A stretch of DNA of 64,000 nucleotides from Magallana gigas. Lineage: Eukaryota. Made by a program: the position numbers. Shown here in pieces: positions 3,001 to 62,400 of this stretch; position 1 is the stretch's first letter; every line of letters begins with the position of its first letter. The stretch covers positions 13,950,001 through 14,014,000 of the forward strand of contig NC_088861.1 in assembly GCF_963853765.1 (NCBI RefSeq), written 5' to 3'.

Positions 3001-6000
3001 ACTTGGCAACAACATACTTTTATCTAACGAAAATACGTAAAGTTGCAGTTTAGATGTTGACCATTTCTGCAATTGTAAGAAAAAAAAATATGTTAATAGT
3101 CTATTTTTTTTTTTTGAAATAGTGCATGTCCTTAAGTGCAGTCATCATTTGAAATATTTAGAATCAACACTGCAGTATAATATTCTAACCTCGTGTTACT
3201 TTTGCTTATCTCATTTGCAAGCATGTCCCTTCATTTAAATATAACCTGATAATTTTGTATTCAAAATTTTAATAGATTTTCTTTACCCTTAATCAGAACA
3301 AATGAAACCAAATTAAAACATATTGAAAATTTGCCGTAAAAAGATCTTTACAATTACTTGGTAGGCAAGGAAAACCAAAGGCACACTACAACCTGTAAAT
3401 ACATGTACATGCTTTGTAACGAACATCAAAATCAATCATTCTCTGGTAAACCACTCTATATTGAGTGCAAAAGCGCTCGTAAATGAACTTTATTTAACAA
3501 GTCTCTGAGTAAATGAAATTAACTATCAGAAACTAACAAAGTTAAATACGCAAGGATAAAAAACTGTGAAAATACATACAAAATTATTTTTTCGACTGTC
3601 GCAGTTTACCTCCCTTTATTTTTTTCATAATGTCACATGGAGCTATCTATTCAAAAATAAGGTTAAAGATAGTAGGGGTTATATCAAAAATAAGTAATTA
3701 AAATGTTTATCACCCCAGTGATATAGAAGTTATACCATAAACATCTTTTTTTGATAATTTGATGTTTGGAGGCAAAATTTTCGGAATTTTTTCGACGGTT
3801 TCTTGACTGGAAAACATAGAGCGCATGTCTGCGCAAGTACTATTTTAAACTATGATGTATATTATCACGTTGCAGGAAGTAGCCATTTGATGTAAACAGC
3901 TACTGGACATTGATGACGTATCAAGACTTATGTGATATATATCCTCTGTGTACTGTTTTAAAAAGATTTGATTGTTTTTTTATCAATAACGCAAATGACT
4001 TACTGATGCAGCGCAAGCGCAGTATTTATACGAAATACAGATAACATGAAAAATAAAATGTCATTTATTTAATATTTAGTAGTATGGAAATTCTTTGAAT
4101 ACTATGCGGTCATAATTATGATCGGGGCGAAATCAAATCTATTGACAAAAATTGATATTCAAAGAATTATTCCCTTTCCCTTAAATCATTTGCAACAATT
4201 TGATTTAATATATTTCCTCACTTTGATTACAGTGTTTTCTTTATTATATGTTTGTGTATATATTAATTAAAAAATTAAGAAATTAAGAGTTTCGTGAATG
4301 TTGCCGAATAAACTCCGAGAGGAAATACTCAGCGTTATGACCAAAACTAGGATGTGAATTCAACGTCGTTTTCAAAAATACGTTTTGAAGCTATTTTCTT
4401 AAGTTACATCCCTATAGAAGAAATAGAATGCTTTTTTTTTTGGTGATCCATGCAAGTTATGGTAGCAATCAATGCCATAGAAAAAAAGTAGATTATATAA
4501 CCAGCTAAAGCAGTTATGTATTTTTACTGCAATTTCGCTACCTTTATATTCCGAATGAATCACCTAAAAGCATTTGGTCATTTTAATAGTGTTTTTGATT
4601 TGAATAAATTTCACAGGAAACACTTAAAATTTCCGAGAGTGATTCATTGACTTCTGTACCTTAGTATACTAGAGGAATTGGGGTAAAATTGACTAATTTA
4701 CTTTTTCAACTTTGGACCTAATAATGATCAATTAAAACCTTTATACTGTACAAAGTTAAAGCAGTGAGTGTTACAAACTGTTAGTTTCAAAATAGTTCAA
4801 ATTATATTTCAATTGTATATATTATGCCTATAAGGAAATTAATATGCTTTTGCTTTTTATTTTAAGCGTTGCATGAAGTTTTGTTGTTAATATCTCTTTG
4901 TATTATTTCATCATATTTTAAGCGATGATTTATATCTTTTAACAGATGTATCAAAGCAAACTGTTCTTGTAAAACATCAATGTAATGTATATGTAATGCA
5001 AATTCGTAGTGGAAACGCGAAAATATATACTGTACAAATGTATTTTCATCAAAATTGATTTTTAATTTAAGTATCATATACTTTCTATGATTTTTTCTAG
5101 GAATATAAATATTTGTTGTTTTGGATTTAACTGGAATGACATTATTGTAAATTGAACAGGCATTAATATGATATCATGTTTTAAAAACATATGTTTGCTA
5201 TTTATATGAAAGCTTATCATACCTTATATGATATTTTCTTAGTGGATCAATGTGTTGTACTGGATCTATCTGGAATGATACCATAGGAGACTGTACAGAT
5301 ACATGTTCTACATGAAATGTTTTCTGGAAACAATGGACGTTATGAGATTTAACAATTGTGCTACATCATAATCGTAATTTGTTTTCATGTTACATGTGCA
5401 AAATTTTCAAAAATAGATTCTTTGGAGATAACTGCTCTACAAAGTATCCTGCAATGTATTTTGGTCCAGGCTGTTTATTACAGTGTAATTGTATCACAGA
5501 ACAATGTCACCACGTTATCGGATGTTTGCAATCTTCTTCTAAAGGTGCATGGTGAACTCTCTTAACTGTTCCACTTGCTATATACGAATACATTTTAAGA
5601 ATGTTTATGTCATGCATGAAATTTTACACAACCTATCATAAAAACATAATGAATACAAATGAAAACAATATTGACAAAACGATGCATGTCCCCTGCAACA
5701 CCCTAAATTTTAAAACAATTCTTGTTGTTTAATGGGCTAAATATGTATGGAAAAAATCGGAGCTAGATTCTTAATGGACGAATCCGACTAGCTTAAAACA
5801 TTTTGCATTATTTTTGGGCTCATTCGGGTTCCTTTGGAAAGATCAACGCATCGCCGTAGCACATTTCCGATCATGTTTGTATATACGTAAATACCTGTAA
5901 ATTAAAAGTAAATGAATTTAAACTTTATATGCACACCATTATGAAGTTGCACAGGAAGTTTGAAATCAATTCGTTATAACATAACAAAACATGACTGACA

Positions 6001-59400: not shown

Positions 59401-62400
59401 GTCCAATATTTCAACATATAACGTGAAAAATAATTTCATTAAGATCCGGAGTTCTGGAATGCTGCCTTGGATATATTTTGAACAAGATAGAGAACAGATG
59501 TATTCGTAAGTTTTAACTCAGACTCTGGATATTCAATATGTATTTGCATGCATATTCACTGTCGCTCATATCTATTTGTTTTAATGTACAGCATGTGACA
59601 AAGGATATATTGGACACAACTGTAGTGACCCTTGTCCTCCTCCATATTATGGTCAGGAGTGTGCGTCAACGTGCAACTGTACTGATAACCAGTATTGTCA
59701 TCACGTACATGGATGTATACAACCACAAGGTAAATGTCACGGAATGATGATCCTTCCCCTTTTTCTACATACTGTTATGATTTCACTTATATTCGTGGGC
59801 ATTAATTTTTGTGGATAAATCGAAAATCACAGTTTTAAGGATACTCTGCCAATAATTCCAGCAATACATATTTTATTAGAAATTGCATCACAACGTTTAC
59901 TTACATTTAATTTCGTGAATAAACTCAACAACGAAATCCACGATTCTTTTTATTTTACAATTGTTGATAAAAACCACTATCAAAAGTAGCATATATTTTT
60001 ACTTCCAAGTATATTAGAAACTTCCGTATATCTCGCTCATAAAATTTTGTTTTTTATTTCATTATTGTTCTGAAAATTCAATATCCATATAGTTTTATAT
60101 TTAAGGTAATAAACAAAGTGTTTAAAAATATTTATCCTGCAGGTGATGCCTGTCAAAAAACAAAGCTAAAACCAGAGAAACACCCAAGTGTCACTTCTCT
60201 TATGTGTGCTGCAGTAGTTTGTCTGTTGATCATATCTGTAATCTGTTTCACTTCATATGTGTACATCAGATTCAGAATGAAACAATATGTAGATTTGCGA
60301 CAAGCTTTGTAAGAACTAATAAATTCGTTTCATATACAGCAATGTGTATGAGTGTAGTCTTCATTAATACATGTATCTTTTAATATACCGGTACCTGTAG
60401 GTGCACTTGTAAGCAATAAACGTGGCAACGTTAAAAAGACATCTCTAAGGTTTTAATTATCGTAAACAAGCGCTTTCCGCTAATGATACATCAGAACGAA
60501 CACTTACATTTTGTTCAAAATAAGATTAAGATGATGTTATAGAAACCGGAATTTTCTAATATATAATTTTAGATTCGTGTGTTAAATTTCACTTTAGATT
60601 ATTTGTAACTCAATGAGGGTACTATATGTAAAAGATATTAATATATAGGCAATTATACTAGTCAATTGTAAACAATGCACTTGAATGTCTACATAGCTGT
60701 TTAACCAAAACAACTGGACAGTTTGCATGTCATAGCAGATATTACAGCCCATTGCTAGAGCTGTTTATTACTTAAATAGTTTTGATTAGAAAAAAGAGAT
60801 GTGAATTATATTGATACATATTATGTTAAGTTATTTAATGTTTGATCAATTCATAAAGTAAATATACGGACCAAATAATCTTATTTTGACCAAATTGGGA
60901 TGCATATGATGTCATAAATAACCTACGTCATACATGTATATACCATGTATAAACCTCTCATTTCAGAAATACTAAACACTATAAAGTCACAAACAACTTA
61001 TAACATCATAATTTGTGTTGTTAAATTGTTTCTATGAAAAACATTTTTTTAATGGCACCAAATTGTAATAAATATCCAAACAAGGTATGTAACAATACGA
61101 CATCATTATGTAAACTAAGAACAAAATTCTGTTACATTTAATATCAACAACATTTCCATGATATAGGATAAACAAAACAGAAGTGACAAAACACGTATTC
61201 AGAATGCTAGAATTTTCAAGTAAGGAAAGGTAAAAAGAGTTTATTTGCCATAAATTAGTCTTCATTTATTAAGGTATCCCACTCCTCAATGTTCGTGTAT
61301 CAAGAATTTCTTGAGAAGTATATCATTGAAATCTGACGACAAAACATACTTAAAAAATACAAAGATAAAGAGATGTCAGTTTTCAGCCCTCTGATTTATG
61401 GCCAATTTAATTTTACCTCTTTGAACCCAAAATGCTATTTCAGCCTGATTGTGATTTCTTGTCAGTATTTTTGATTAAGCAAACTTTTTTCTTGAGGTAT
61501 TGTTTTTAATAATGCACAATGGTCACATTGAATAGAAGATTACGACAAGAATTTTCACGAATCTGCATAAATTTTTGTGTGACCTTTTTGCACTTAAAAT
61601 AGACACTTTCTATATTATTTACAATTTAACTTGAATAAAATCATTTTGAATATCAAGAACTTTATAAGATTAATCAGGTTTGCCTAGATAAGTATTCAGC
61701 ATCATTTTGACATAATAAAACATGGAGGTCAGTGATGTCAAATTTTAGATATATTGCTTCAAAGGTAGAATTTTTGCAAAATTTCGCTAAAAAAATTCAG
61801 ACAATACTTATATATATATGCATGATTTTATGATACACATCTATCATTCTCTCAAAATTTAGTTTTGTACAAGTCACATAGGACCTAAAAAACATGTCAC
61901 AAACCTATCAGATGTTAAAAATGTTAATATTGAATAAAGTATAATAAAAGAAAAGTATATTGAAAATTCATAAAATTGCTTGTATCCAACATCTTAGACT
62001 ACCTTCCGCACACAAAAATAGTTCCCCCAAAACTTGATTGTTGATTGAAATCAAATATATTTTCTTTATGAATAATGTTAAATTATGAAATGATGATCTT
62101 TATGTGAGGTTTAAATTAATAAAATCATATTCCATTAAAATATTATGGACATTTGCGCTATGAAATAAATATGTGAGCAGTGAGATACCTTAATAACAAA
62201 ATCTAGAACATTCATACAACATCCCATCTCTTTTTAAATGGTAAGAAACTATAATTATGTAGTACAATTATTCATTTAATTAACATCTACTGTATAAAAA
62301 ATTTCTAATCATTGTCCATGTTTTCCTGGTTTCAATACTATATGAAATCATGAAAATACAATATAATAATGTGTACAATATAACTATTTCAATCACTTTT

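What the first reader, a model, noticed from the sequence alone, without database searches (positions are those of the whole stretch)
4600..60900. Four-gene D-A-B-C cassette triplicated, each copy losing different members
Seen: order is D1psi/D2psi-A1-B1-C fragment | D remnant-A2psi-B2-C1 | D remnant-(A absent)-B3-C2. Intergenic flanks recur in the same order, for example the B upstream block (12590-13590, 22900-23860, 53670-54270), the post-B block (16070-16160, 58560-58650), the C upstream block (35080-35570, 58660-59150) and the pre-A block (9750-10080, 20790-21100). Only one intact A remains, while B has three open copies. Inference: birth-and-death evolution by unequal crossing-over, possibly with dosage constraint on the ITIM-bearing member.
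[Added by the scan's program, not by the reader: the finding's places include an assembly gap (unread letters, written N; its length is only estimated) at 33897 to 34024. Whether the letters on both sides are continuous or in frame is not known: test that first.]
Basis: partly seen in the sequence, partly recalled or inferred. Interest (0 to 1): 0.65.

Follow-up and report, generated by a model that had tools for sequence, protein, structure and literature searches.

The report
Decaying tandem array of small oyster receptor genes
This stretch of oyster DNA holds a repeated block of four related small cell-surface receptor genes whose copies have been broken or deleted in different ways, an ordinary pattern for fast-evolving gene families that is already annotated in related oysters.

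Summary
The repeated order D-A-B-C is real.

A, B, C and D are paralogues of one family: signal peptide, a CCxGY exon, one 8-cysteine EGF-like exon, and a stalk/transmembrane exon. RefSeq calls the Crassostrea homologues "draper-like" or "MEGF10".

- **A:** A1 is intact (5 exons). A2 is a pseudogene. A3 was removed by a clean ~2.3-kb deletion.
- **C:** C1 and C2 are intact. The unit-1 C keeps only its last 29 codons.
- **D:** all copies are dead.
- **B:** "three open B copies" is only half right. Exons 1-3 are open in 3 of 3, but the transmembrane exon is damaged differently in each.

Non-coding divergence falls into at least three age classes (K2P about 0.05-0.08, 0.14-0.26, 0.28-0.39). So this was not one triplication, or gene conversion has overwritten part of it.

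Two loss junctions that I aligned closely show microhomology, not unequal crossing-over. The gap at 33897-34024 lies in an intergenic spacer and interrupts no exon; its flanks are collinear with one stretch elsewhere.

A C. gigas fused gene model shows the same C-Drem-B-C order, so the array is old. The finding is ordinary, and the ITIM dosage idea is untested.

The parts
1752..3868 (+). Vestige of a further unit to the left. The pre-C spacer homologue is 1752-2233 and the C 3'-flank homologue is 3787-3868. No C exons were found between them.
   Evidence: 1752-1914 ~ 33217-33373; 1847-2233 ~ 34677-35073; 3787-3868 ~ 18321-18402 ~ 37826-37912. The tblastn run found no family exon here.
4579..6606 (+). 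D1 pseudogene. It has an exon-1-like piece, a degenerate extra exon-2 copy, exon 2, the EGF exon at 5394-5543 and a stalk/TM exon near 6170-6330.
   Evidence: The lesions are a 16-nt deletion removing the exon-1 donor, AT in place of the GT donor after exon 2 (shared with D2), loss of the exon-3 acceptor AG, two EGF cysteines lost (Cys to Phe and Cys to Tyr), and a TAG in the stalk exon.
6607..8492 (+). D2 pseudogene, a tandem copy of the D1 5' part. It carries an ~860-bp insertion and lacks the stalk/TM exon.
   Evidence: K2P to D1 is 0.078. There is a TAA inside the EGF exon (8242-8379), the same AT in place of GT after exon 2, and an extra exon-2 copy carrying a TGA.
10079..11629 (+). A1, intact, with 5 exons: 10079-10158, 10278-10342, 10465-10590, 10722-10793 and 11379-11629. 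The cytoplasmic tail is 22 aa and ends ..NIICYNSV.
   Evidence: every acceptor is AG, every donor is GT, and the intron phases are 2,1,1,1; exon by exon it matches C. angulata XP_052708136.1 (198 aa) at 77-100% identity. TM window with mean hydropathy 2.3.
13523..15820 (+). B1. Exons 1-3 are intact (13523-13590, 14824-14888, 14974-15117). Exon 4, starting at 15561, stops at TAA 15710-15712 just before the TM segment, followed by a 6-nt insertion and a 1-nt deletion.
16941..17030 (+). C fragment: the last 29 codons of a C gene plus the stop. The 5' part was lost at a microhomology junction at 16939.
   Evidence: 90% identity to C. angulata C residues 121-149; 93% to XP_052708138.1; junction alignment.
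16939..20785 (+). Young block X1: the C 3' end and flank plus D remnant a. The only D exon left is the stalk/TM ORF at 19837-20046.
   Evidence: K2P 0.05-0.07 to 36660-40775..
21100..22411 (+). A2 pseudogene.
   Evidence: The lesions are a 7-nt deletion in exon 2, a 1-nt deletion in exon 4, and in exon 5 a 1-nt deletion that puts TAG in frame plus a 5-nt deletion in the TM segment. Exon 1 has an in-frame 3-nt insertion.
23791..26169 (+). B2. Exons 1-3 are intact (23791-23858, 24889-24953, 25031-25171). The canonical exon 4, starting at 25779, hits a TAA after 18 complete codons. A ~137-nt insertion (25856-25992) follows. An acceptor at its end (exon 25994-26169) would give an open TM exon.
27765..35080 (.). 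B2-C1 spacer. It is swollen by degenerate repeat or mobile-element sequence at about 27.8-33.2 kb and holds the assembly gap at 33897-34024.
   Evidence: pieces match 45.6-51.2 kb in inverted orientation. Searches cover the gap flanks.
35490..36751 (+). C1, intact, with 4 exons: 35490-35569, 35864-35925, 36016-36153 and 36582-36751.
   Evidence: AG/GT at every splice site, phases 2,1,1; 87% identity in exon 4 to C. angulata XP_052708149.1 (149 aa). Exon 1 is 100% identical to XP_052708138.1.
36660..40775 (+). Young block X2: the C1 3' end and flank plus D remnant b (stalk/TM ORF 39839-40042).
40820..52695 (+). Unit-3 D-to-A spacer. It is collinear with 8489-9770 but split by two insertions. 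They include the 168-bp satellite, a 27-bp minisatellite, and a GC-richer element with a tyrosine-recombinase-like ORF (50118-51032) and a GDSL-like ORF (51191-51706).
   Evidence: 8489-8607 ~ 40820-40935; 8599-9030 ~ 44367-44649; 9625-9770 ~ 52554-52695..
52695..52698 (.). Deletion joint where A3 should be. About 2.3 kb is missing, corresponding to 9770-12068 of unit 1.
   Evidence: 9625-9770 ~ 52554-52695 and 12068-12146 ~ 52698-52782; no A exon anywhere between 40775 and 53500.
54198..57597 (+). B3. Exons 1-3 are intact (54198-54265, 56347-56411, 56496-56636). A 318-bp tandem duplication (56846-57483) doubles the exon-4 acceptor. Copy 1 (starting at 57035) ends ..KKIE then stop. Copy 2 (57353-57597) is an open stalk+TM exon ending ..LAKR then stop.
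59068..60312 (+). C2, intact, with 4 exons: 59068-59147, 59444-59505, 59592-59729 and 60143-60312. C 3'-flank homology runs on to about 60950.
   Evidence: 85% identity to the last part of the C. gigas model A0A8W8JB99.

Best explanation
The window carries a tandem array, all on one strand, of a small oyster gene family.

**The proteins (shown).** Each gene encodes a ~150-200-aa type-I membrane protein built from:
- a signal peptide;
- a CCxGY...C exon;
- one 8-cysteine EGF-like exon of the Draper/MEGF10/SCARF kind;
- a stalk plus a single transmembrane helix.

The tail differs by type: 22 aa in A, 2-5 aa in B, about 12-20 aa in C.

**How the array was built (inferred).** An ancestral gene first diversified into four types, D, A, B and C. 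The four-gene unit was then copied head to tail in several rounds. There are at least three age classes, or one old round later overwritten in places by gene conversion.

**How it decayed (shown).** Copies were lost independently by:
- nonsense and frameshift mutations (A2, B1, B2, D1, D2);
- deletions, two of which show short microhomology joints where I aligned them (the C 5' part and the spacer in unit 2); the others are A3 and the D 5' parts;
- a 318-bp internal duplication in B3;
- repeat and mobile-element insertions that inflate units 2 and 3.

**Age of the array.** It predates the split from C. gigas and C. angulata. It is a birth-and-death multigene family.

**Function (inferred from family likeness only).** The products are probably cell-surface recognition or adhesion modules of phagocytic cells.
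For: - **Repeat map.**
- **Exon models, made exon by exon with splice sites and phases checked.**
- **Lesions.**
- **One family.** Across 12 Crassostrea proteins the invariant columns include one C of the CC pair (the other is present in at least 90%), W, N and the eight EGF cysteines.
- **Homologues.**:
  - A = XP_052708136.1 (198 aa);
  - B = XP_052708147.1 and XP_052708140.1 (169 and 171 aa, ending right after the TM);
  - C = XP_052708138.1, XP_052708148.1 and XP_052708149.1 (149 aa each);
  - all lie on one 61.9-Mb C. angulata contig.
- **Order conserved across species.**
  - The C. gigas fused model A0A8W8JB99 reads C exons, then the D-remnant stalk exon, then a B EGF exon (87% to B3), then C2-like exons (85%).
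  - C. angulata A isoform X2 runs into B exon 2 read out of frame (against the ORF at 24852-24998).
- **Age classes** (K2P):
  - X block 0.05-0.07, B3 duplication 0.056, D1/D2 0.078;
  - A1/A2 introns 0.14-0.26 and pre-A 0.14; D1 3' part against the D remnants 0.21-0.22; C upstream 0.22;
  - B upstream 0.28-0.31, C introns 0.30-0.39.
- **Constraint**: dN/dS is 0.27-0.61 in exons 2-3 and 1.26-1.40 in the stalk/TM exon. Counts are small and no test was made.
- **Microhomology joints.**
Against: - No transcript, population or long-read data were available, so 'intact' means only an open frame with canonical splice sites.
- Continuity across the gap at 33897-34024 is supported only by collinearity.
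- The age classes could reflect gene conversion rather than separate duplications.
  - B1 and B3 share a 94%-identical intron 2 inside an otherwise ~61-70% identical gene, which looks like conversion.
  - C copies are mosaic between species: the window's C2 has an exon 1 closest to XP_052708148.1 but a TM exon like the last exon of the C. gigas model.
- Long introns aligned poorly (K2P up to 0.78, with many gap columns), so the oldest distances are rough.
- Function is unsupported by any domain model.
  - Pfam gave no EMI or EGF hit above cut-off for 4 of 4 reference proteins at E<=1, nor for the cassette ORFs among 233 ORFs scanned.
  - The AlphaFold model was poor (mean pLDDT 46.7).
Confidence: 0.8

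Rival explanations
1. One old triplication of the D-A-B-C unit by unequal crossing-over. Later gene conversion between neighbouring units made the C-3'/D-remnant block and the A genes look young.
For: - Unit phase and orientation are constant.
- There are signs of conversion. B1/B3 intron 2 is 94% identical inside a gene that is otherwise 61-70% identical in its introns. C copies are mosaic between species.
- Identity falls stepwise along unit 2, from 93-95% (X block) to 82-87% (A) to about 70-75% (B upstream).
Against: - The young X block begins exactly at a non-homologous joint inside C exon 4. It ends at another joint with only ~3 bases of microhomology. Conversion tracts should begin and end within homology.
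- A tract of about 4 kb is long for conversion.
- D1/D2 and the B3 internal duplication show that small tandem duplications of similar age (K2P 0.056-0.078) did occur here.
Confidence: 0.3
2. Assembly artefact: the units are uncollapsed haplotypes, or the two sides of the gap at 33897-34024 are wrongly joined.
For: A gap of only estimated length lies inside unit 2. Oyster genomes are highly heterozygous (recalled, not from any call). The closest pair of blocks differs by only 5-7% in substitutions.
Against: - What follows the two closest blocks is not allelic. After X1 comes the A2 pseudogene, then B2. After X2 comes a spacer without A, then B3. B2 and B3 differ by K2P of about 0.3 or more.
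- Most blocks differ by 20-30%.
- Both gap flanks match one stretch of another unit in order.
- C. angulata RefSeq has 1 A locus, 2 B and 3 C proteins on one contig. A C. gigas model spans C-Drem-B-C in the window's order.
Confidence: 0.05
3. The three B genes are not decaying. They have each been turned from a membrane protein into a secreted one. On this reading the stops before the TM segment are the functional ends.
For: - Exons 1-3 and all their splice sites are intact in 3 of 3 B copies, with dN/dS 0.40-0.61.
- All 5 disabling lesions lie in exon 4. Exon 4 is about 47% of the coding length, so roughly 0.47^5 = 0.02 if lesions fell at random. That figure is my arithmetic, not a tool result.
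- The true pseudogene A2 has lesions spread over exons 2, 4 and 5.
- The Nimrod family has both secreted and membrane members (PMC8419693, passages read).
Against: - Exon 4 evolves neutrally in B and in the intact C genes alike (dN/dS 1.26-1.40). It is simply the softest target.
- The C. angulata B proteins keep the TM.
- B2 and B3 still have an acceptor that restores the TM form.
- The sample is three genes, and there are no transcripts.
Confidence: 0.15

Closest known systems
RefSeq-annotated cluster in Crassostrea (Magallana) angulata and C. gigas: LOC128183230 (A; XP_052708136.1/137.1), 'MEGF10' XP_052708140.1 and XP_052708147.1 (B), 'draper-like'/'MEGF10' XP_052708138.1, XP_052708148.1 and XP_052708149.1 (C), and the C. 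gigas fused model UniRef A0A8W8JB99
   Same: The same three intact gene types, with the exon layout I derived here. Exon-level identity is 62-100% for the same-type matches listed. All the C. angulata proteins lie on one contig. A isoform X2 reads into a B exon, and the C. gigas model runs C, D-remnant exon, B, C, as in window 35490-60312.
   Different: - This window is a different genome. A1's last exon is only 82-84% identical to the C. gigas and C. angulata A proteins.
- The unit-1 C is truncated here, whereas a C ending ..NVPETL is intact in C. angulata.
- The B TM exons are damaged here but not in the two C. angulata B proteins.
- I could not see the congeners' DNA, so their copy order and pseudogenes are unknown to me.
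Draper / CED-1 / MEGF10 / SCARF1 (class F scavenger receptor) engulfment receptors
   Same: A CCxG(Y/W)...C motif followed by an EGF-like repeat of the form C-x2-G-x2-G-x2-C-x3-C-P-x3-Y-G-x2-C-x3-C-x-C..., then one TM helix. A profile of 12 family members hits the SCARF1 N-terminal fragment 8hn0_A across exactly these two elements (E 0.012). It also hits an 'EGF-like domain-containing protein', 6u11_A (E 3e-10). The EGF exon alone finds 698 library proteins at E<=0.001, many with 10-44 repeats.
   Different: There is one repeat instead of many. Pfam detects no EMI domain. The tails are 2-22 aa and lack the NPxY/YxxL signalling motifs, which I recall from memory. These genes are miniature relatives, not orthologues.
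Drosophila and Anopheles Nimrod superfamily and its gene cluster
   Same: [quoted passage not shown] The family mixes secreted and transmembrane members used by phagocytes (PMC4073527 and PMC8419693, passages read). Tandem clustering of the fly genes is recalled, not checked.
   Different: The NIM repeat consensus CxPxCxxxCxNGxCxxPxxCxCxxGY (six cysteines; PMC4073527) is not met. The oyster repeat has eight cysteines with different spacing.
Vertebrate paired-receptor clusters that evolve by birth and death (KIR, LILR, Ly49; recalled)
   Same: Tandem same-strand paralogues with interspersed pseudogenes and gene fragments. A member with an ITIM-like tail sits beside members with almost no tail.
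   Different: The fold is unrelated (EGF-like, not Ig or C-type lectin). B has no charged TM residue for an adaptor. The ITIM is not canonical in the congeners' A proteins. No functional data exist.

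Membership tests
Draper/CED-1/MEGF10 | N-terminal EMI domain | tested here: not met
   Pfam at E<=1 gives no EMI hit for 4 of 4 reference proteins (A, B, C of C. angulata and one C. virginica draper-like protein). 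Only the CCxGY...C end of such a domain is present.
Draper/CED-1/MEGF10 | Long run of atypical EGF repeats | tested here: not met
   Each gene has one 8-cysteine repeat, encoded by one exon.
Draper/CED-1/MEGF10 | Single-pass type-I membrane topology | tested here: met
   A hydrophobic N-terminal exon and one 19-residue window with mean hydropathy 2.15-2.93 in the last exon of A1, B2, B3, C1 and C2. This is a hydropathy calculation only.
Draper/CED-1/MEGF10 | Cytoplasmic NPxY and YxxL signalling motifs (features recalled) | tested here: not met
   The sequence after the best hydropathy window is 22 aa in A1, 2-5 aa in B2 and B3, and 20-21 aa in C1 and C2. None contains NPxY.
Nimrod superfamily | [quoted passage not shown] | tested here: met
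   CCPGY in A1 and A2, CCLGY in B1-B3, C1 and C2. That is 7 of 9 exon-2 copies; D1 and D2 read CCTGS.
Nimrod superfamily | NIM repeat CxPxCxxxCxNGxCxxPxxCxCxxGY (PMC4073527) | tested here: not met
   By eye against the exon-3 peptides: eight cysteines, no CxPxC start and no NG core.
Class F scavenger receptors (SCARF1) | Sequence relationship to the SCARF1 N-terminal module | tested here: inconclusive
   Profile against PDB: 8hn0_A at E 0.012 and 8hna_B at E 0.094. The alignment covers QCCAGW..C and the first EGF-like repeat.
ITIM-bearing inhibitory receptor | [S/I/V/L]xYxx[I/V/L] in a cytoplasmic tail (consensus recalled) | tested here: inconclusive
   A1 has ICYNSV five residues from the C-terminus. 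C. angulata and C. gigas A have MCYNSV, which is non-canonical at -2. The pattern matches 4 of 11 peptides scanned, and 3 of those matches are in a signal peptide, a TM segment or at the membrane edge.
ITIM-bearing inhibitory receptor | Tyrosine phosphorylation and recruitment of SHP-1/SHP-2/SHIP | not testable with these tools
   Needs biochemistry.
Birth-and-death tandem multigene family | Same-strand tandem paralogues with interspersed pseudogenes and fragments | tested here: met
   - A: 1 of 3 positions intact.
- C: 2 intact plus 1 fragment.
- D: 0 of 4 intact.
- B: exon 4 damaged in 3 of 3.

Birth-and-death tandem multigene family | Copies older than the species, with copy-by-copy orthology across species | tested here: inconclusive
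   The C. gigas fused model shows C-Drem-B-C, with its B exon closest to B3 (87%, against 82% and 78%) and its last exons closest to C2. But C copies are mosaic between species, and no congener DNA could be examined.

The most novel reading that the evidence does not exclude
The locus is a lophotrochozoan counterpart of a paired-receptor cluster. One member carries an inhibitory-type tyrosine tail (A, kept as a single intact copy). It sits beside tail-less members (B) that are repeatedly converted from membrane-bound to secreted decoys by independent lesions just upstream of the transmembrane segment. All three B copies here would then be functional soluble forms rather than pseudogenes.
Probability: 0.12. 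Interest if true: 0.55.

Novelty: new member of a known kind. Interest (0 to 1): 0.25.

Why it matters
The value is mostly for annotation. The window gives a worked example of how a small oyster receptor family turns over: by unit-wise tandem copying, then by point lesions, microhomology deletions, a small internal duplication and repeat insertions. It also warns that automatic models at this locus fuse neighbouring genes, as a C. gigas model and a C. angulata isoform both do.

If the B lesions prove to be a repeated switch to secreted forms, or if the A tail proves to be inhibitory, the locus would become a compact system for studying receptor/decoy evolution in invertebrate immunity. Nothing here shows that yet.

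Tried and rejected
- **Pfam on window ORFs.** I scanned all 233 stop-to-stop ORFs of at least 55 aa (119 on the + strand, 114 on the - strand). No cassette ORF reached a gathering score. The only score above a cut-off (ChrB_N, 25.3 against 23, at 47578-48090) lies in a 27-bp minisatellite with no passing stretch, and I treat it as an artefact.\n- **Pfam on reference proteins.** Nothing useful for 4 reference proteins at E<=1.\n- **Structure prediction.** AlphaFold2 of C. angulata A with a 12-row alignment gave mean pLDDT 46.7 and pTM 0.24.

Full report
**1. What the window is**

The window is 64 kb with 31.6% G+C. It has two N runs, at 33897-34024 and 63132-63332. Its best protein matches are all Crassostrea (Magallana) proteins. 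It is therefore oyster DNA, from a genome that is not identical to the C. gigas or C. angulata references. A1's last exon is 82-84% identical to theirs, while some C1 exons are 100% identical.

**2. The gap, tested first**

- The gap (128 N) lies in the spacer between B2 and C1, 1.47 kb upstream of the C1 start codon.
- tblastn with A, B, C and D-like proteins finds no family exon between B2's last exon (ending at 26169) and C1 exon 1 (starting at 35490).
- The 500 and 652 bases next to the gap have no other strong match in the window.
- Further out, 33217-33373 (left) and 34677-35073 (right) both match one stretch, 1752-2233, in the same order and orientation (E 8e-21 and 1e-20).
- The two sides thus look like parts of one ancestral pre-C spacer, and the join is collinear with another unit.
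- That is not proof of continuity. Frame is not an issue, because nothing coding crosses the gap. I did not fill it.

**3. The observation**

The layout I find is:

- a remnant of a unit to the left (1752-2233, 3787-3868);
- unit 1: D1ψ, D2ψ, A1, B1, C fragment;
- unit 2: D remnant, A2ψ, B2, long spacer with the gap, C1;
- unit 3: D remnant, spacer with insertions, no A, B3, C2.

C 3'-flank homology runs to about 60950. Beyond that I found nothing related.

**4. What the genes are**

Stop-to-stop ORFs and paralogue alignments show that A, B, C and D belong to one family. I built the models exon by exon and checked splice dinucleotides and phases.

The common plan is:
- exon 1: signal peptide (phase 2);
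- exon 2: ..CCxGY.WN....C.. (phase 1);
- exon 3: one 8-cysteine EGF-like repeat (phase 1);
- last exon: stalk, one TM helix and tail;
- A has an extra stalk exon.

Database proteins match this plan exactly:
- C. angulata XP_052708136.1 (A, 198 aa);
- XP_052708147.1 and XP_052708140.1 (B, 169 and 171 aa, ending ..LFLYSKC(KD) right after the TM);
- XP_052708149.1, XP_052708148.1 and XP_052708138.1 (C, 149 aa each).

All lie on one 61.9-Mb contig. Their RefSeq names are 'draper-like', 'MEGF10', 'PEAR1-like' or 'uncharacterized'.

**5. State of each copy**

*A*
- A1 is intact.
- A2 has a 7-nt deletion (exon 2), a 1-nt deletion (exon 4), a 1-nt deletion with an in-frame TAG, and a 5-nt deletion in the TM segment (exon 5).
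- A3 is missing through a clean deletion. Sequence 9625-9770 matches 52554-52695, and 12068-12146 follows at 52698-52782. No A exon lies between 40775 and 53500.

*B*
- Exons 1-3 and their splice sites are intact in 3 of 3 copies.
- Exon 4 is damaged in 3 of 3.
  - B1 has a TAA just before the TM, then a 6-nt insertion and a 1-nt deletion.
  - B2 has a TAA in the stalk, then a ~137-nt insertion whose end offers an acceptor to an open TM exon.
  - B3 has a 318-bp tandem duplication. Its first copy ends in a stop and its second is open.
- 'Three open B copies' therefore holds for the ectodomain exons only.

*C*
- C1 and C2 are intact.
- The unit-1 C keeps only its last 29 codons. Those codons are 93% identical to the end of XP_052708138.1, a gene that is intact in C. 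angulata.

*D*
- D1 and D2 share an AT where the exon-2 donor GT should be, and a second, degenerate exon-2 copy with a stop.
- D2 has a TAA in the EGF exon and no stalk/TM exon.
- D1 has lost an exon-1 donor, an acceptor and two cysteines, and has a TAG in the stalk exon.
- The two D remnants keep only the stalk/TM exon.

**6. History**

Gap-free K2P distances in non-coding blocks fall into groups.

| Group | Blocks | K2P |
|---|---|---|
| Youngest | X block (16939-20785 against 36660-40775) | 0.05-0.07 |
| Youngest | B3 internal duplication | 0.056 |
| Youngest | D1/D2 | 0.078 |
| Middle | A1/A2 introns; pre-A | 0.14-0.26; 0.14 |
| Middle | D1 3' part against the D remnants | 0.21-0.22 |
| Middle | C upstream | 0.22 |
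| Oldest | B upstream | 0.28-0.31 |
| Oldest | C introns | 0.30-0.39 |

Long B introns aligned badly and are not reliable. One triplication cannot give this spread. Either there were several rounds of copying, or conversion has overwritten parts. B1/B3 intron 2, at 94% identity, is a hint of conversion.

The junctions I could read are not homologous exchanges:
- The C fragment begins where post-B spacer meets C exon 4, at a few shared bases.
- The X block meets pre-A at about three shared bases.
- Units 2 and 3 are inflated by repeat insertions that share pieces in opposite orientation (27.8-33.2 kb against 45.6-51.2 kb).

**7. Age and reality of the array**

- A C. gigas UniRef model (A0A8W8JB99, 315 aa) fuses neighbouring genes in this order: C exons 1-4, the D-remnant stalk exon, a B EGF exon (87% to B3, 82% to B1, 78% to B2), then C2-like EGF and TM exons (85% to C2).
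- A C. angulata isoform of A runs into a B exon 2 read out of frame.
- The order A-B and C-Drem-B-C therefore exists in congeners. This argues against an assembly artefact and for an array older than these species.

**8. Selection**

dN/dS is 0.40-0.61 for B exons 2-3 and 0.27 for C exons 2-3. It is 1.26-1.40 for the stalk/TM exon in both B and the intact C genes. These rest on 46-67 codons and no test was made. The last exon is thus the least constrained part, which by itself can explain why B lesions gather there.

**9. Comparison with known families**

- The EGF exon of B3 finds 698 library proteins at E<=0.001, many of them giant multi-EGF proteins.
- A 12-protein profile hits the SCARF1 N-terminal fragment across the CCxGW..C element and the first EGF-like repeat (E 0.012). 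It also hits 6u11_A (E 3e-10).
- The Nimrod hallmark of a CCxGY motif ahead of the repeats is met. The NIM repeat consensus is not (PMC4073527 passages).
- EMI, multiple repeats and the long signalling tail of Draper/MEGF10 are absent.
- These genes are miniature relatives of the engulfment-receptor group, not members in the strict sense.

**10. The ITIM**

- A1 ends ..NIICYNSV, and ICYNSV fits the recalled consensus.
- The C. gigas and C. angulata A proteins have MCYNSV.
- The pattern is common by chance in these peptides (4 of 11 match).
- Whether A is inhibitory, and whether its single copy reflects dosage, cannot be judged here.

**11. Verdict**

This is a real, old, decaying tandem array of a family already annotated in related oysters. 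The structural observation is sound and the mechanism offered is only partly supported. B's status was misread, and the finding is ordinary for oyster genomes.

Five literature searches for the family found no paper on this particular array. Supplements were closed.

Noticed in passing
window 45796-47217 and 47592-48001: A 168-bp satellite array (about 6.7 copies by TRF, 87% matches) sits next to a 27-bp minisatellite (15 copies). The minisatellite keeps several long ORFs open in both strands. Weaker inverted matches to the satellite unit lie at 28614-28923 and 31947-32131.
   Followed up: partly
window 47500-52000: A G+C-richer island (38-43% against about 30% elsewhere). It holds an ORF with sub-threshold tyrosine-recombinase matches (50118-51032: Phage_integrase 25.2 bits against a cut-off of 27.1; SAM-like N-terminal domain 22.3 against 22.3). 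It is followed by a GDSL/SGNH-hydrolase-like ORF (51191-51706: 26 bits against 32.9). No reverse transcriptase was found in the upstream ORFs. It is probably a tyrosine-recombinase mobile element inserted in the unit-3 spacer.
   Followed up: partly
window 1-1043: Tandem repeats with a period of about 154-166 bp (315 bp as a dimer), 75-83% identical, at the left edge of the window.
   Followed up: no
window 12550-12859, 22814-23141, 53073-53409 (inverted), 54899-55242, 24032-24521, 53555-53913, 55224-55552: A 300-500-bp interspersed repeat occurs several times upstream of the B genes and inside B intron 1, once in inverted orientation just upstream of B3.
   Followed up: partly
window 52958-53099: A short piece resembling the sequence just downstream of the B TM exon (15883-15990 and 57661-57801, 75-78% identity) lies upstream of B3. 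It may be a relic of a further B copy.
   Followed up: no
window 9757-9770, 20770, 52695: Two independent rearrangement joints map within about 15 bases of the same point of the pre-A sequence: the unit-2 spacer deletion and the unit-3 A deletion. This may mark a fragile spot or the end of an element.
   Followed up: partly
proteins P0164, P0171 and P0174 (C. angulata XP_052708137.1; C. gigas UniRef A0A8W8JF85 and A0A8W8JB99): Public gene models at the orthologous locus fuse neighbouring genes: A into B out of frame, and C plus a D-remnant exon plus B plus C. These are annotation errors, or read-through transcripts worth checking.
   Followed up: partly
window 25351-25383 and 25447-25690: A (TG)16 microsatellite and a 122-bp two-copy tandem repeat inside B2 intron 3. 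They account for much of that intron's extra length.
   Followed up: no
window 63132-63332: A second assembly gap (201 N) lies outside the finding, about where a D remnant would be expected after C2 if the array continues.
   Followed up: no
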